Origin: Octopus vulgaris
Taxonomy: Eukaryota
Direction: 5' to 3'
DNA length: 64,000 bases
Assembly: GCA_951406725.2 (NCBI GenBank)
Contig: OX597821.1
Location: 51,894,001-51,958,000 of the forward strand
The notes under the pieces are model-generated. The model saw only the letters and a list, made by a program, of their open reading frames with translations, was not told the origin of the DNA and made no database searches. Made by a program: the position numbers and the translations under genes. This document shows, piece after piece, positions 3,062 to 62,832 of the stretch; within the stretch, counting starts at the first letter, position 1, and every line of letters starts with the position of its first letter.

Positions 3062-3603
3062 TAGTGAGAGAGCAACTCATACCATCAAAGTAACACTGGG
3101 GTACAAATATACAAAACCCAATATATCCATCATGACTACCCGTCTGATAAGGGTACACTAGGCACATGCATCACAGCCATATGTGTACAACATGGTGATC
3201 TCATATCAAGATAAACAGTGTATTACCTTTCAGGTCGAGCCCTCCTAGGATTTTCTTCTGGCCGAGTAGCCCATCCCACTTAGAAGTTTCCCTGAATAAA
3301 GGGTTTTTAAGAGTGTTGAAGGAAACACCCATGTTTCCGAGGTGACTTATTCAAACCCCAAAGAATTCCTCTCAACACATCGCTGTGATGCTCATCCACT
3401 ACTCTTGCTTGTGATCAAAGATGTACATATTGTCAGCCACCAAGGTTAAGGTAAAACAACTGACAAGCAAATCTGTGGTATTGAGCAGAATATTTGTTGT
3501 AGCCCATCTTTTATAAAATGACAAAATATGTACATAATAACACTTCCAATCAGTTAAGATAAGAAGCCATGAGAGCCACTGCCTGGTATTGCATTAAGAC
3601 ATT
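3062..3603 (-). mobile_element. ~550 bp interspersed non-coding repeat associated with (AAT)n
   Basis: Reverse complement of 62084-62639. Partial copies at about 17690-17855 and 53983-54208. Confidence 0.85.
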
Positions 3604-5850: not shown

Positions 5851-6148
5851 CACGTGACCGCCCAGACCATCAGATGTTGTTACACATCGCTGGTCACAAT
5901 GCGTTCGCATTGTTTTAGCTTTCGAATGACGCCACCCCGCTGGCTAAGCGAGCAGGCCAATAGAAGAAAGAGTGGGAGAAAGAGTGGTGAAAGAGTACAG
6001 CAGGGATCACCACCCCCTGCTGGAGCCTCGTGGAGCTTTTAAGTGTTTTCGCTCAATAAACACTCACAACACCTGGTCTGGGAATCGAAACCACGATCCT
6101 ATGACCCCGAGTCCACTGCCCTAACCACTGGGCCATTGCGCCTCCACA
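5851..6148 (-). mobile_element. tRNA-derived SINE ('family C'), near full length
   Basis: Minus strand starts GTGGAGGCGCAATGGCCCAGTGGTTAGGGC (A-box) ... GGTTTCGATTCCC (B-box). Flanked by (TA)n; homologous to 30509-30685. Confidence 0.85.
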
Positions 6149-17135: not shown

Positions 17136-18295
17136 AATTTGAGGAGTGTGGAACCACTTTTTAATCACTATTGTTCCCAAGTTTCATCTGATCCAGAGTT
17201 GTGTGGTTTATAATATATCTAATAGAAATTTTGTCTGAATATGATATACTTAGTAGAAATAAAGTAATGGTTAAAGAGATAATATATTGGATGATGGTCA
17301 GTATAAAGGCCATCCTCTAATGAACTATACTTAGTAAAACAGTAACCACCAGCAACTAGGTTAAAAATCTTCTTGTAGTGACCTTCCTCTTATATCTATC
17401 TTGTGTAGCTCTCAAAAATAACAACTACATCCAACTAAAATTAACATGGAAGTCTATCCATGATCCCTTATCAGAAATGAAAAATTCCCTCAAATCACAT
17501 CCCTGCTATCATAATATCCCTAAAGATGGGATGATCTTCATAAGTCTGTTTAATCAGGATTGTTTAGAAATAAGATAATACTGTGTAACACGATTTTTGT
17601 CCTTGGGTAGCTCCTGTAATGTTCTATTTGCTCAGCTTTAGAAAGTCCGAAAAGTAGCTATTTCTTTTAAACTTAACTTTTGTTACATTTATTCAAACCC
17701 CCAAAATCTCTCTCAACATATGGTTATAATGCTTCCCCACTACTCGTGTTCATGATCAGAGATGCATATATTGTCATCCACTAAGGGATATGCTCCAATG
17801 GTTATGGTTAAACAACTGACAAACAAATCTGTGGTATTGAGCAGAATATTTGCTATAATGATATGTCTGCTTCAGCAACTCAGCACTGAATCTGTCAGAA
17901 ATGTAATGGAAAATAGGTCAGTTTTAAAACATTGGTGTCCAGGTCACAAAAGTAAAGATTGAAAGGATTCCTAGTTGTTTCCTTTGATTTCTAGATAGAA
18001 GCAAATAGGGAATAAAGACATACTGACCAAAGACAAAAAGAATTAAAATTTTATTACACAGTATTAGCAACTAGTTTAACCACAGATGTCCACAAAAGAC
18101 ATCTTCTTTAAAGGAAAAACATTTTCCAGCAAAGCACACCAGCTTTTGGAAATATTTTGTCAATAACAGGATATTCTTCAATGAAATAGAAATATTACTT
18201 TACCACTGTTATAATTGTTTCTACAATTGCCCCAAGGCCTGAATTATAGAGAGCAGGGTTCATTTGATTACATTGATCCCAGTGTCTAACTATTA

Positions 18296-30508: not shown

Positions 30509-30685
30509 GTGGAGGTACATGGCCTAGTGGTTAGAGCAGCGGACTTGCAGTTGAGGGATCGCGGGTTCGAATCTCAGACCAGGCGATGTGTGTGTTTATG
30601 AGTGAAACACCTAAGCTCCACGTGGCTCCGGCAGAAGGTAATGGCGAACTTCTGCTGACTCTTTCACCACAACTTTCTCTCACTC
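30509..30685 (+). mobile_element. SINE family C, 5' part
   Basis: GTGGAGGTACATGGCCTAGTGGTTAGAGC...GGGTTCGAATCTC; homologous to 5851-6148. Confidence 0.85.
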
Positions 30686-36411: not shown

Positions 36412-37619
36412 GTAATTCTTATAATATTAATCTTTTTTTTATTTGCAGGATTGTATTTTCACAGGTATTTATTTTATCAAAATTTTGGACAAATATTTAA
36501 ACTGGAAAACAATATATGGACTACAAAACACAAGTACAATATAGATATATGTAAACACAAACACACATACATACACAACCAGCTTAGTGGTTAGAGCACT
36601 GGCCTCACAACTCAGTAGTGAGTTTAATTCCAGGGCCAGGCTGTGAGTTGTGTTCTTGAGGAAGACACTTTATTTCACATTGCTCCAGTTAACTCAGCTG
36701 TGGAAATGAGTGGTGACATCACTGGTGCCAAGCTGTATCGGCTTTTACCTTTCCCTTGGATAACATCAATAGTGTGGAGAGGGGAGGCTGGTATGCATGG
36801 GTGACTGCTGGTCTTCCATAAACAATCCTGCCTGGACTTGTTCCTTGGAGGGTAACTTTCTAGGTGCAATTCCATAGTCATTCATGACTGAAGGGAGTCT
36901 TTACCCTTTACCCTTTATGAAGTCACTCAACCCATTAGAAATGAATAGGACAGAGGATAATATTGTCTAAAGTATACTATACCTAAAACAAGACAGGTAT
37001 AATGTCATAGTTGAAAATCATTTGATGATAGTTCTGTTGGATTAATGCCAACTTGGAGCTAAACAATAATACCATAATTAAACAGATGTATATTCAAATT
37101 GCTAATCCTGTTGTGTCTGGGGAGAGTCATTCTCTTTTAGTGCTTTATAATTTAACAAACTCACATTAAGAATCTTGCAAACCAAATCCAAAATCGAAAT
37201 AAATTGCTAATATTCTACCATAATGATAGACATAATTATGCACATTCCTTATATAGGTTCATATATATTGTCATCATTATAACATCCATTTTCTCTATGC
37301 TAACATTGCTTGAATGAAACATATTAACATACCCTTCCTGTCACCAACCCTTATTTGTTTTCAAATAAGGGTCTTATTGACCTGGTCTTCCACAAAATGA
37401 ACTGCTCATATGTCGGAAGTAAAAGTATTTGAATTATACCTGCGTTAAACTCCATTTATTTATTTATATATTATACAAAAAATTCCATGTAAACCTGAAG
37501 TTTCTACCTTTAAAAACAAGGAGTTACAGCCTCTTTACTTGTGTGATTTTTTGCTACCCTGGTAACTATTTATCTATTTTTTCCATGTTAATTGTTAACA
37601 AGGGAAAAATACACACATC

Positions 37620-53749: not shown

Positions 53750-55166
53750 TTATTTTGCTTTTTGTGGGAGGGGTATAGTTGATCACATCGACCCCAGTAC
53801 TTGACTGGTACTTAATTTATTGACCCAGAAAGGATGAAAGGGTAAAGTTGACCTCAGCAGAATTTGAACTCATAATATAACAACGGGCAAAATACTGCTC
53901 AACATTTCACCCAGCATGCTAACAATTCTGCCAGCTAGTCACCTTATAATAATAATGATGATGGTGATGATGATGATAATAACCTTTTGAGTGGGATAGA
54001 CTACTCAACCTGAAGAAAATTCAAACTGGGCCCCATCTGCAAGGTCATGTGCCATTTATCTTGATATAAGATCACCATGTCATGCACATATGGTTGTGAT
54101 ACATGTGCCTGGTGTACCCTTATCATATGGGTAGTCATGATAGGTATACTGGGCTTCATATATTTGTACCCCAGTGTCACTTTGATGGCATGCACTGCTC
54201 TCTCAATCAATACTAATAACAATAATAATGATAATAATGATCAAGCAGGCAGTGAAAAAGAACAGGCAGAAACAAAAATGAGAATCTAGCAGTTTCTTAC
54301 AATATATCCATCTTAATCAAAATGTGGATCTTCAATTTACTGTTTTGCTTGTGTGAACACTGAAAATCCTATAAGGACCTCCAAGAATCATATGGACCAC
54401 AGTTGAGAACCACTGATTTAAACCCTTTGAAGCAGTGCTCCAGCATTGCTGCTGTCTGTGGCTGAAGCAGTTAAAAGGTAAGAGATAAAAGATGCAACAC
54501 AAAAATTAGCCGTTTGAACAACAAAAGCAAATAAATTATCTAAAACATCACAGAAAGCATTAGAGCAAAAAGTTCACAGTATGTACATAGTTCAAAATAG
54601 TCCAATAAATGTATAAATTGCTATAGCACAGAAACATTATATATAACAAATGTGTTTGTGCTTAGTGGTAATGTCTTTTATGTGCTGAAAGTGTTTATGT
54701 ATAAGAGAATTTGATGTTGTGTGTGGTGATGTAGTTGTTTCAGTTGTATTTGCATCAGTGTACATTGTTTTTTAAACATTATTAATGCTGACTGTCTCTT
54801 CTTTTACTATGTGCATTGATAATACACATTTAGGATATGCTTGTACAATACAATATGGTCTGATATATGGTGTATGTAAGGGCTTTTGTGCCACATCATT
54901 ATGGACAAAAATACGAGACCACAAAGTAATGCCAGCTGGAACATAAGTCTTAACTGTTTACTGTTAGGGCAATAATTTCAGATAAATTAGACTTATAATG
55001 TTACTGACAATAAACATAATTGCATGGATCATATTACATATTAGAATTTCCAGCTACCACAAAGCAGCTCCACTTGAGTATAACCTAAGTCTACTTAATT
55101 GATAGTATGACACCTAGTAGAATAACCAGCAGATATTCCAACCATCTAGCTGTGTTGTCATATGCT

Positions 55167-59847: not shown

Positions 59848-62028
59848 GCAACCAACATAGTAATGTGAAACTCTTGAAGTTAAGTTTTCATATCAACAAA
59901 TTTATTATAATAGTCTAACATTAGCAAGAACAAATATAGAAATAGCCACAAATCAGACTATTAACACAAACTGCTGCTTATGCAAAGCCACTGCTATGAG
60001 AAGGATAATTTAACCTATTACAATCCTATGTCATAGACACTACCATATCAATCTCAGTTGTAGAATAAGTACACTATGTTCTGTACATATAACCTTTCAT
60101 GAAACTGTAGCTTATTCAAAGTTCCAAGACATTTAACCCTTTGCATGTCCAAAGCATTTTCATAAGTCTGTCTTAAATATCCATGCTTGTTTTCATACTT
60201 CTAGTTATCTCTTGTTTCATATGTTCTGAGTAAAATAAAGCTTTCCTTGTCTCAAGAAAAAAATTGGAAATATGTATCACATATGATGCATGGAGGCCAG
60301 AGGAATATGTCCTGTGCATCACATGTAATGCACAAGACAGGCAAAGGACTAAGTCGAAAAAGTCAGACCCCACCATCACTTGCACTGAATGGAATGCTAT
60401 CAGTTGCAGACAGATGGCACTAATTTCCTGCCGAGAGCAGCATAAAAAGTTGAATGCTGTTCAAGGACACAATGCATTGCCTGACACAAGAATTGAACTC
60501 ATGATCTAATTATCAAGAGGCCAGCACTCTAATCACTAGGCCAAACACCTTTACCAGTATGTCATTAGGGGTGACTAAAAGAGTTGACAACAGAAAAAAC
60601 ATTCAGGAGTAAGCACTACGTTAGAAATATTGTCTAACCCATCACACTATAGATGTCATCTTTTATATTTTACTTGTTTCAGTCATTGGGCTGTGGCCAT
60701 GCTGGTGCACTGTCTTGAAAGGTTTAGATGAACAAATCAATGTCAGAACTTACTTTTTAAGTTTGGTACTTATTCTATCAGTCTCTTTTGCTGAACATAA
60801 GCAAACCAACACTGGTTGTCAAGTGGTGTTCGGAGGACTAACACAAAGACAAAAACACATACATTAATATATATATATGAATATATATATGAATATATAT
60901 ATATATGAATATATATATATGAATATATATATATATATATGTTAATTATTCTTGTTTTATTCTATACACAAAATTTTGTACCTAACACATGTCTCTTGTG
61001 TTGCAGTATTTCTTTTGTTTCGTATTTGACCCTTGAGGCTAATAAAGAAAAAAACTGTTATTACTACTACTATTATTATTATTATTGATGCCAATAGCAA
61101 TGTTAACAAAATTAGAAAACAAAATTAATAGCTAATTGTTACTGAAAGTATTGGTGAGTGGATTAGTGAGTATTAAATTAATCAGCTAAGTATTTAATGA
61201 GTTAATCATCTGCTTTACCTCTTCCTTCTCCTTGACTGTGTTCTTTCAGCTAGAAAAATGAAGTCATAATGAGAGGCAGACAAGTTATTACCATATAAAT
61301 GTACACACACACACACAAACACATATGTGTGTATGTATATACGGATATACATATATGCATATTGTGTGTATATATGTGTATATATATATATATGTATGTA
61401 TGTATGTATGCGTGCATATATATATATTTATGTGTGTGTGTGTATAAGTGAATATAGATATATACACAAAGAGAAGACCTATAGCAGGACTCCTTACATG
61501 CTGGAAAGGGTAGTTAAACCCAACCATGAAAAATAATTATTTTTTCGTGGTGGTGTTTAACAGCATACATCTATATGCACTTTTATATATGAAAATATGT
61601 TGCCTTATGACTTTTATTATGCACATGAACCACTGGTAATAAATTATTCTACTTTTGAGGTGTTGAGTACTCATTCTCATTGTTTGATATATATATGCAA
61701 ACACATATGTAATCACTGATTACCTGCTCTCTTGTGGTGTTTAGTCAACTTAGTAAGTGAAGTTCTGCCAGACATCTCTCTTATACCTAGCTTTTCTCTC
61801 AACTCATTTGCATAACATTACACATCCAGCAGAACATGCTCACTTCATTTCATTCCTGCCTTTATGAATCCTTCTCAGACAGTGCTCATGTTTCACTACC
61901 ATACTTTGTATATGAGGTGGTATCAAAAAGTTACAGGCATATAGCGTAGTGGTTAAGAGTGTGGGCTACTAACCCCAAGATTCCGAGTTTGATTCCAGGC
62001 AATGATCTGAATAATAATAATAATAATG

Positions 62029-62071
<43 letters not shown>

Positions 62072-62083
62072 TAATAATAATAA

Positions 62084-62639
62084 ATGCCCTGATGCAGTAC
62101 CAGGCAATGGCTCTCATGGCTGCTGATCTTAACTGATTGGAAGTGTTATCATGTACATTGTTTTGTCTTGGTATAAAAGATGGGCTACAGCAAATATTCT
62201 GCTCAATACCACAGATTTGCTTGTCAGTTGTTTGACATTAACCAGTTGACCATGTCCGTTAGTGGCTGACGATAAGTGCATCTCTGATCACAAGCAGAAG
62301 TAGTGGGGGAGCATCATAGCTGTGTGTTAAAAGGAATTATTAGAGGTTTGGATAATTCACCTTTGGAAACATGGGTGGTTCGTTCAACATCATTAAACAA
62401 TCTTTATTCAGGGACCTTTTGAGTGGGATGGGCTACTCAACCTGAAGAAAATTCTAACTGGGCCTCACCTGCAAGGTCATGCACTGTTTATTTTGATATG
62501 AGATCACCATGTCACGCACATATAGTTGTGATGCATATGCCTGGTGTACCCTTATCAGACAGGTAGTCATGATGGGTATACTGGGCTTCGTATATTTTAC
62601 CCCAGTGTCACTTTGATGGCATGCACCACTCTCTCACTC
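62084..62639 (+). mobile_element. ~550 bp (AAT)n-associated repeat, full copy
   Basis: Homologous to 3062-3603 (-); flanked by (AAT)n on both sides. Confidence 0.88.
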
Positions 62640-62708
62640 AATAATGATAATAATAACAACATCGAAAAATATCTTAGGAATGAGAACCTAGGTTCGAAAT
62701 TTCCCCAA

Positions 62709-62754
62709 GACACCTGATGAAGGCTGGAGGGTATATCAACCGAAACATTGTGTT
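62709..62754 (+). ncRNA. Minimal type I hammerhead ribozyme motif (Penelope type)
   Basis: GACAC-CTGATGA-A-GGCTGG-agggtata-TCAACC-GAAA-C-ATT-GTGTT. Stem I GACAC/GTGTT; stem II with one mismatch; no intramolecular stem III. Confidence 0.65.
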
Positions 62755-62832
62755 AACAACAAATAAGATGAGGACAAATGTCTGTCAAATGTAAATAATG
62801 TAAAAAATAACTTATTTACCTAAATTTTAAGA

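What the first reader, a model, noticed from the sequence alone, without database searches (positions are those of the whole stretch)
61936..62803. tRNA-derived SINE apparently carrying a Penelope-type hammerhead ribozyme in its 3' part
Seen: a Pol III tRNA-like head (A and B boxes), then (AAT)n. Once the nested 62084-62639 insert is removed, a ~150 bp 3' segment follows that contains GACAC-CUGAUGA-A-stem II-GAAAC-AUU-GUGUU. Known: minimal type I hammerheads that lack an intramolecular stem III and use a palindromic one in dimers mark the termini of Penelope-like elements (PLEs), and SINEs normally borrow the 3' end of their mobilising LINE. Inferred: a ~230 bp tRNA-headed, self-cleaving SINE possibly mobilised by a PLE, an unusual combination. 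Two single G>A changes (AACATT from palindromic AACGTT; TCAACC from TCAGCC) would account for this copy's defects, so it may be inactive. I cannot check whether the family has already been described.
Basis: partly seen in the sequence, partly recalled or inferred. Interest (0 to 1): 0.85.

Follow-up and report, generated by a model that had tools for sequence, protein, structure and literature searches.

The report
Penelope retrotransposon with tRNA-derived promoter

Summary
In detail: tRNA-like head, (AAT)n, a nested 556-bp insert and a minimal type I hammerhead are all there, and head and tail are linked in 27 of 29 head-picked copies. But this is not a SINE that borrowed a partner's tail. 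The whole unit is the pseudo-LTR of an autonomous Penelope/Poseidon element: the head follows the GIY-YIG stop codon in 29 of 29 loci, and the tail is the start of the 843-codon ORF (15 of 15). Short and ORF-bearing copies share one majority sequence. Short copies pile up at the head start, often have an inverted twin, mostly lack target duplications, and end at two internal sites, all as for PLE insertion. Three features appear new: a tRNA-Arg-like head with canonical A/B boxes inside an autonomous PLE repeat; no TTTT terminator on the 2.6-kb sense strand (3.0 expected, P=0.024, suggestive only); and 2-5-nt deletions at the predicted cleavage bond in 24 of 203 copies, a likely footprint of cleavage in vivo. 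Pol III transcription and cleavage are untested; RNA reads showed no discrete ends. tRNA SINE plus hammerhead is known (schistosome Sm-alpha). The window copy is decayed.

The parts
61936..62009 (+). tRNA-Arg-like head; 5' part of the PLE pseudo-LTR
   Evidence: Family majority aligns without gaps to a genomic tRNA-Arg(TCG), 42 of 66 nt; score 59 vs 27.5+-4.3 in 1000 shuffles, best of 33 tRNA genes tested; follows the PLE ORF end in 29 of 29 loci
61942..61952 (+). A box (one transition from the family majority at 61943)
   Evidence: sequence
61985..61996 (+). B box, damaged here by C>T at 61990 (tRNA C56 position)
   Evidence: C in 69% of 134 copies at this CpG column
62010..62083 (+). (AAT)n tract of the pseudo-LTR, left part
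   Evidence: present with variable length in other copies
62084..62639 (+). nested 556-bp repeat of another family that sits in (AAT)n tracts; not part of the element
   Evidence: fixed ends and AAT flanks; 32 BLAST pieces in 1.4 Mb of evenly spaced stretches; three more copies in the window
62640..62655 (+). (AAT)n tract, right part
62656..62803 (+). 3' part of the pseudo-LTR, equal to the start of the PLE ORF; ends at the first of two 3' end clusters
   Evidence: direct continuation into the ORF in 15 of 15 loci; 3' ends cluster at tail positions 143-154 and 174-181
62680..62803 (+). remnant of the ORF N-terminus (first in-frame ATG 62680-62682; two stops in this copy)
   Evidence: homologous N-termini in P0005, P0085, P0099
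62709..62754 (+). minimal type I hammerhead: stem I 62709-13/62750-54, core 62714-20, bulged A 62721, stem II 62722-27/62736-41, GAAAC 62742-46; predicted cut after 62749
   Evidence: same architecture as in PMC4209133; deletion hot spot at the cut in 24 of 203 copies
62766..62774 (+). 5' arm of a predicted stem whose 3' arm lies in the 30-35-nt extension missing from this copy; the first 3'-end cluster lies in its loop
   Evidence: fold of two natural copies, not better than shuffles (z -0.6, -0.7)

Best explanation
The feature is a decayed, short copy of the pseudo-LTR of an autonomous Penelope/Poseidon retrotransposon, and such short copies likely arise when the element's own RT-endonuclease copies an RNA that RNA polymerase III likely starts at the tRNA-derived head. 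Shown: the full unit is head-(AAT)n-hammerhead-ORF(RT, GIY-YIG)-head-(AAT)n-hammerhead-tail. Inferred steps: (1) a tRNA-Arg-derived SINE-type head was captured just behind the ORF stop and became the repeat's promoter, starting RNA about 12 to 0 nt before the head; (2) the protein nicks both target strands and starts reverse transcription inside the RNA at two sites about 55 and 85 nt past the ribozyme cut, as shown in vitro for the anole Poseidon; (3) when this happens in the 5' repeat, cDNA runs out at the RNA 5' end and gives a SINE-sized copy, often as a head-to-head pair; when it happens in the 3' repeat it gives ORF-bearing, 5'-truncated copies; (4) two hammerheads in one transcript pair through the ACGU palindrome and cut some RNAs; RT crossing the cut (ligated, or by a jump on a 2-nt match) leaves the 2-5-nt deletions. 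Short copies are probably mostly dead ends rather than a self-propagating SINE.
For: Head directly after the endonuclease C-terminus in 29 of 29 loci picked by that coding stretch. Tail directly before the ORF start in 15 of 15 loci picked by the ORF start; L300 and L304 begin at head 0 and +3, then AAT, tail, ORF. Near-full copies L126, L421, L424 carry both repeats. Column majority of 103 fragments gives one 843-codon frame with DKG, YVDD and GIY-YIG/CCHH motifs and no linker zinc finger; RT is Pfam PF00078, E 1.4e-10. Of 30 tail-picked copies 16 begin at -17..+10, 6 inside the head, 8 have no head match, 0 reach into the ORF (P 5e-5 and 2e-17 under equal per-base rates). In 140 evenly spaced 10-kb stretches: 14 loci, 5 starting at -9..+8, 3 with ORF, 6 starting further in. 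RNA read depth is flat (300-410) over 260 nt of ORF end and rises to about 860 across the head (X23, first mate +). Adjacent inverted partner for 48 of 70 heads without ORF, pairs counted from both sides. Two 3'-end clusters: 126 and 122 of 271 (the second includes copies that run on into the ORF). No majority difference between 68 ORF-bearing and 54 short copies apart from two non-significant columns. Deletions of 2-5 nt starting at tail 91-93 in 24 of 203 copies, versus mean 1.2 and maximum 4 in 37 other 3-nt windows and 0.0026 per copy at 113 ORF sites with like microhomology; lengths vary and carriers share no more substitutions than others (0.24 vs 0.27). No T4 run in 2,636 nt. Mechanistic frame from PMC11167929 (parts 1-2 of 4 read) and PMC8557442 (passages).
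Against: Pol III transcription and cleavage were not measured. Two raw RNA-seq runs (about 6% of each read) show both strands equally, 72-78% of reads running on into unlike sequence, and no pile-up of starts or ends. 5' ends spread over about 20 nt rather than one base, and coincide with a small palindrome at -7..+5 that could itself favour termination or fold-back. Short copies also carry the deletion (4 of 58, against 12 of 63 ORF-bearing, P 0.06), so they are not cleanly the products of uncut RNA. One ORF site has a similar deletion rate (6 of 51), so an inherited variant cannot be excluded for the commonest deletion. Five columns differ in minor-allele frequency between long and short copies at P<0.01; the sets were picked by different queries. 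Hammerhead core is not more conserved among copies than other non-CpG positions (3.2% vs 3.8%). 3 of 48 related PLE ORFs also have no T4.
Confidence: 0.68

Rival explanations
1. The unit is the PLE pseudo-LTR, but the tRNA-like head is a passive passenger. Transcripts come from Pol II or host read-through, and short copies are 5'-truncated insertions whose ends cluster because RT stops or folds back at the palindrome at the head start.
For: Palindrome at -7..+5 coincides with the cluster and many twin junctions centre on it; no discrete RNA ends; short copies carry cut-site deletions too; PLE promoters are described as lying in the pLTR without mention of Pol III (PMC6765202 passages).
Against: A and B boxes are canonical in the majority at exact tRNA spacing while the cloverleaf stems are broken; clustering is also seen in copies without an inverted partner; no T4 on the sense strand; RT is expected to stall at the 3' foot of a structure, not 60 nt further on (general knowledge).
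Confidence: 0.22
2. One reading: an independent tRNA SINE lineage with a PLE-derived tail that propagates from its own master copies; one copy also became fixed at the end of the PLE.
For: Short copies outnumber ORF-bearing ones (5 vs 3, plus 6 shorter) and look slightly younger (divergence 0.053 vs 0.069, biased by how they were picked); tRNA-Arg SINEs were described from octopus (recalled; title only seen).
Against: Same majority sequence as the PLE repeat; every ORF end examined has the head (29 of 29); no target duplication in most (9 copies: longest shared word 5.4 vs 4.75 for mismatched pairs); copies ending at the first 3' cluster lack the 3' arm of the stem, and the anole element needed 172 nt of ORF as template, more than short copies hold.
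Confidence: 0.08
3. The hammerhead-like motif is a by-product of the coding sequence and never cut.
For: No Rfam match; folding not above shuffles; no selection among copies.
Against: All minimal-hammerhead features of PMC4209133 are met; related PLE proteins keep the in-frame peptide spelled by the two core boxes while the stem II peptide differs; equivalent motifs lie 200-330 nt after the ORF in related loci L349, L359, L360, L418 (read by eye); deletion hot spot at the bond.
Confidence: 0.04

Closest known systems
Penelope/Poseidon PLEs, e.g. Poseidon of Anolis carolinensis (PMC11167929; PMC8557442; PMC4209133)
   Same: Single ORF with N-terminal domain, RT, C-terminal GIY-YIG; pseudo-LTRs; minimal hammerhead overlapping the ORF start; two internal 3' ends about 30 nt apart; inverted 5'-truncated twins; heavy 5' truncation.
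   Different: Pseudo-LTR starts with a tRNA-Arg-like A/B-box head and an (AAT)n tract; 5' ends pile up there; no T4 on the sense strand; deletion hot spot at the cut, whereas the anole study found no reads ending at the cut. None of 31 related loci with a readable 3' flank had a tRNA-like head.
Schistosome Sm-alpha / Sj-alpha SINE-like elements (Ferbeyre 1998, Laha 2000, seen only as summarised in PMC2770079, PMC6765202, PMC8490949)
   Same: tRNA-derived Pol III promoter followed by a type I hammerhead; after cutting, the promoter lies at the 3' end of the unit.
   Different: Sm-alpha is non-coding, often tandem, tRNA-Gln-related, and no autonomous element containing the whole unit was mentioned in the passages read; here the unit is part of a coding element and copies are single or head-to-head.
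TRIMp3 elements Cassandra, Helenus, Ajax (PMC10886601, passages)
   Same: A small-RNA-derived Pol III promoter captured inside a terminal repeat, probably by SINE insertion.
   Different: Those are short non-autonomous LTR elements, and that paper argues autonomous partners must use Pol II; here the carrier is an autonomous non-LTR-type PLE with a ribozyme.
Non-LTR retrozymes (PMC7229834 passages; bioRxiv 10.64898/2026.07.22.740005 part 1 of 5)
   Same: Non-coding pLTR-derived units with type I hammerheads, proposed to be PLE derivatives.
   Different: Retrozymes are tandem arrays; these are dispersed, tRNA-headed and identical to the parent's repeat.
Octopus OR1/OR2 tRNA-Arg SINEs (Ohshima and Okada 1994; content recalled, title seen, paper not held)
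   Same: Possibly the very same short family, if the host is an octopus as its repeat landscape suggests (inference, no call names the organism).
   Different: Could not be compared; I recall no hammerhead or PLE link in that description.

Membership tests
Penelope/Poseidon PLE | single ORF with RT followed by C-terminal GIY-YIG endonuclease | tested here: met
   843-codon majority frame with YVDD, GIY-YIG-type and CCHH motifs; natural 569-aa frame in L422; PF00078. The local Pfam scan did not score the endonuclease; 3 of 81 homologues carry PF01541
Penelope/Poseidon PLE | DKG motif, no zinc-finger linker between RT and EN (unlike Neptune/Nematis) | tested here: met
   motif scan; criterion from PMC8557442; no tree was built
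Penelope/Poseidon PLE | direct pseudo-LTRs and adjacent inverted truncated copies | tested here: met
Penelope/Poseidon PLE | optional 30-40-nt tail extension (two internal RT starts) | tested here: met
   3' ends at 143-154 and 174-181
PLE minimal type I hammerhead | CUGANGA and GAAA cores, extra base before stem II, G10.1-C11.1, palindromic 15.2-16.2, short stem I | tested here: met
   majority and 38 of 160 copies with both cores plus palindrome; 91 of 160 with both cores; window copy fails stem II and palindrome
PLE minimal type I hammerhead | self-cleavage as dimer or with protein help | not testable with these tools
   indirect only: deletion hot spot; 5' ends at the cut inconclusive; cofold did not give the dimer as lowest-energy form
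tRNA-derived SINE (SINE2) | tRNA-derived head with A and B boxes | tested here: met
   isotype assignment limited to the 7 amino-acid types sampled
tRNA-derived SINE (SINE2) | transcribed by Pol III from the head | tested here: inconclusive
   5'-end pile-up but no RNA ends seen
tRNA-derived SINE (SINE2) | lineage independent of the autonomous partner, sharing only its 3' end | tested here: not met
   whole unit shared, no fixed differences
tRNA-derived SINE (SINE2) | target-site duplications and simple-repeat 3' tail | tested here: not met
   9 copies tested, 2 with a 9-10-nt shared word (one within AAT); window copy 4 nt; simple repeat is internal
Non-LTR retrozyme | tandem head-to-tail arrays of hammerhead units | tested here: not met
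   no such array among 14 loci in 1.4 Mb or loci L001-L060

The most novel reading that the evidence does not exclude
An autonomous, protein-coding retrotransposon transcribed end to end by RNA polymerase III: it captured a tRNA promoter, purged every TTTT terminator from 2.6 kb of sense strand, is processed by its hammerheads in vivo (scar at the cut in about one copy in eight), and sheds SINE-sized copies from its own first repeat. This would be a route to SINE birth without recombination and the missing parent type for Sm-alpha-like elements.
Probability: 0.35. Interest if true: 0.9.

Novelty: new variant of a known kind. Interest (0 to 1): 0.72.

Why it matters
It shows that a large 'tRNA SINE' family can be the terminal repeat of a Penelope element, which changes how such repeats are annotated and suggests an origin for hammerhead-bearing SINEs. 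It makes two open questions directly testable: what promoter drives a PLE, and whether PLE hammerheads cut during transposition in vivo (the anole study found cleavage dispensable in vitro and no reads ending at the site; here genomic copies carry deletions exactly there). If Pol III transcribes the full ORF, it would contradict the usual view that coding retrotransposons need Pol II.

Tried and rejected
Rfam and ARAGORN: no tRNA or hammerhead call. Selection on the ribozyme among copies: none. 5' ends at the cut site: 10 of 113 internal ends at tail 93-96 (P 0.005 uncorrected), but about half are explained by microhomology or by the deletion variant breaking the alignment, so not used as support. 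Target-site duplications: not general; no empty-site relative of the window flanks found. Run search: no RNA holder listed; laid reads gave no discrete ends. tRNA heads in related PLEs: A/B-box pattern gave 72 hits vs 72 in shuffles (uninformative); a tRNA profile gave two hits at E<0.01 in 80 loci, neither behind an ORF end; positive control found 20 of 29 own heads at 5-20 bits. Sister families without the head in this genome: the best-scored places of two protein searches overlapped largely with this family, and the ten long copies fetched from such lists all matched it. No relatives in viral contigs. The closest proteins (52-67% identical, P0001-P0006) have no DNA context available. A first reference-guided majority had two false frameshifts and was replaced. 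Three look-ups of earlier findings returned nothing. Literature: ten searches listed no paper whose title, abstract start or read passages describe a tRNA promoter in a PLE repeat; the library lacks most subscription papers, and Repbase/Dfam could not be checked.

Full report
Observation. The window holds, as described, a tRNA-like head (61936-62009), an (AAT)n tract split by a 556-bp insert (62084-62639), and a 148-nt segment with a minimal type I hammerhead (62709-62754). The genome is a 2.8-Gb animal assembly; head and tail each have thousands of first-look candidates. Head is followed by tail in 27 of 29 head-picked loci. In 81 aligned tails the majority restores stem II (G at 62739 in 72) and the ACGU palindrome (G at 62747 in 41, A in 31). 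Of 160 copies spanning the motif, 91 have both cores and 38 both cores plus palindrome. The layout matches the PLE minimal hammerhead of PMC4209133 (parts 1-2 of 4 read). Rfam and ARAGORN call nothing and folding is not above shuffles. In 140 evenly spaced 10-kb stretches I counted 14 insertion loci, about 28,000 genome-wide (15,000-47,000).

What it is. In locus L005 the head follows the C-terminal coding part of a Penelope-like ORF twice. Searching with that coding stretch gave 29 further loci and in all 29 the head follows directly. Searching with the ORF start gave 15 further loci and in all 15 the tail precedes it directly; L300 and L304 begin at the head start and run head, AAT, tail, ORF. 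L126, L421 and L424 are near-full copies with tail sequence at both ends. The column majority of 103 fragments is one open frame of 843 codons from the first tail base to a stop 30 nt before the head, with DKG, YVDD, GIY-YIG-type and CCHH motifs and no linker zinc finger, i.e. Penelope/Poseidon type (RT PF00078; 81 homologues at E<=1e-20 among 1441 candidates, best 52-67% identical). So the 'SINE' is the pseudo-LTR of an autonomous PLE and its 'tail' is the ORF start. Between 68 ORF-bearing and 54 short copies no column changes majority apart from two non-significant ones; five columns differ in minor-allele frequency at P<0.01.

The head. It aligns without gaps to a tRNA-Arg(TCG) gene of the same genome (42 of 66 nt; score 59 against 27.5+-4.3, maximum 43, in 1000 shuffles), the best of 33 tRNA genes of 7 amino-acid types that I fetched, which is not the full tRNA set. 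A and B boxes are canonical in the majority; stems are broken in register (2/7, 1/4, 3/5, 3/5 pairs). None of 31 related PLE loci, out of 80 from metagenome contigs, that show the ORF end and 200 nt or more of flank has such a head; these relatives are distant (48% or less in RT).

How short copies arise. 5' ends cluster at the head start: 16 of 30 tail-picked copies begin at -17..+10, 6 inside the head, 8 lack a head match, none reaches the ORF; in the unbiased sample 5 of 14 loci begin at -9..+8, 3 carry ORF, 6 begin further in; RNA read depth, which here mirrors embedded copies, is flat over the ORF end and rises about 2.5-fold across the head. 3' ends fall in two clusters about 30 nt apart (126 and 122 of 271). 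An inverted partner abuts 48 of 70 heads without ORF. Target duplications are not general. These are the PLE signatures listed in PMC8557442 (passages) and explained in vitro for the anole Poseidon, which nicks and extends both strands and starts RT at two internal sites near the ORF start, giving shorter products on 5'-shortened RNA (PMC11167929, parts 1-2 of 4). The simplest reading is an RNA that starts at the tRNA head, copied from the internal start in the first repeat. A palindrome at -7..+5 offers a rival cause for the cluster.

Footprint of cutting. 24 of 203 copies have lost 2-5 nt starting at tail 91-93, at the predicted scissile bond; the commonest loss (15 of 198) is the three bases just 5' of the cut. 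Other 3-nt windows of the tail have a mean of 1.2 and at most 4 events, including perfect short repeats; 113 ORF sites with like microhomology give 0.0026 per copy; one ORF site reaches 6 of 51. Lengths vary and carriers share no extra substitutions, which points to recurrent events, though an inherited variant is not excluded for the commonest form. A template jump from a cut 5' end to a cut 3' end on a 2-nt match would give exactly this loss (inference). ORF-bearing copies carry it in 12 of 63, short ones in 4 of 58 (P 0.06).

Terminators. No T4 run is shared by even a quarter of copies anywhere along the element and the majority has none in 2,636 nt; synonymous shuffles give 3.0 (P 0.024), a composition-based draw 5.1 (P 0.002). 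Single copies have 0.32 per kb against 2.03 per kb in 48 related ORFs of similar T content, 3 of which have none. 25 of 33 host tRNA genes have T4 or longer within 21 nt downstream. This is suggestive, not proof, of Pol III read-through of the whole element.

Expression. Two raw RNA-seq runs under the species label of a partial holder, about 6% of each read, gave both strands alike, 72-78% of reads running into unlike sequence and no start or end pile-up. These reads most likely come from copies inside host transcripts and do not test the model.

The window copy. It starts at the head (-2..+1), ends at the first 3' cluster, has no inverted twin and no target duplication, differs from the majority at 6 head and 8 tail positions including B-box C56, stem II and the palindrome, has two stops in the tail frame, and is split by an unrelated insert. 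It is very likely inert.

Comparison with what is known. PLE minimal hammerheads are known. A Pol III promoter followed by a hammerhead is known from schistosome Sm-alpha (passages in PMC2770079, PMC6765202, PMC8490949; the 1998 and 2000 originals not seen). Pol III promoters inside terminal repeats are known for non-autonomous LTR elements (PMC10886601 passages). Retrozymes as PLE derivatives: bioRxiv 10.64898/2026.07.22.740005 (part 1 of 5), PMC7229834 and PMC4918200 (passages). A recent octopus repeat annotation has no occurrence of 'ribozyme' in its main text (PMC13282606 passages; supplements not seen). The short family may equal the octopus OR1 or OR2 SINE (recalled; title seen in PMC3531059's references; paper not held). 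Ten searches showed no description of a tRNA promoter within an autonomous PLE; Repbase and Dfam could not be checked.

Verdict. Real feature; a new variant of a known kind. That it is a PLE pseudo-LTR is close to certain; Pol III origin of the short copies about 0.7; Pol III transcription of the whole coding element about 0.35. Interest 0.72.

Noticed in passing
window 62084-62639; also 3063-3602, 17689-17857, 53982-54208: A 556-bp repeat family with fixed ends that sits in (AAT)n or similar triplet tracts, sometimes in tandem; about as abundant as the PLE family or more; partner element not identified.
   Followed up: partly
L016 (minus, before the tail) and L025 (minus, before the tail): 3' ends of a LINE with restriction-like endonuclease coding sequence (R4/Dong-like by my reading) inserted in the AAT tract of the pseudo-LTR; the tract is a landing site for several elements.
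   Followed up: no
window 30517-30576 (+), 6079-6135 (-), 36581-36630 (+): Other tRNA-like heads, unrelated to this head by BLAST; probably other SINE families.
   Followed up: no
L011:360-1470 and L104:1-945: A second, C-rich PLE-type RT family in this genome; both pieces contain T4 runs (4 each).
   Followed up: partly
L292, L293, L295, L296, L298, L301, L305, L306, L430: Mini-elements: tail, 100-250 nt of ORF start, then a jump back to tail or head sequence, often at short matches; look like template jumps between RNA molecules. In L430 the jump joins ORF position 412 to head position -6.
   Followed up: partly
proteins P0005, P0085, P0099: Related PLE ORFs from other organisms (one neighbouring cluster holds barnacle proteins) keep the in-frame peptide spelled by the hammerhead cores at their N-terminus.
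   Followed up: partly
L307-L340: About half of the top tRNA hits in the genome are diverged tRNA-Lys(TTT)-like copies, suggesting a further tRNA-derived repeat or many pseudogenes.
   Followed up: no
L349:2039-2107: A tRNA-like sequence about 440 nt upstream of a related PLE ORF, absent from that element's 3' repeat; probably an independent insertion.
   Followed up: partly
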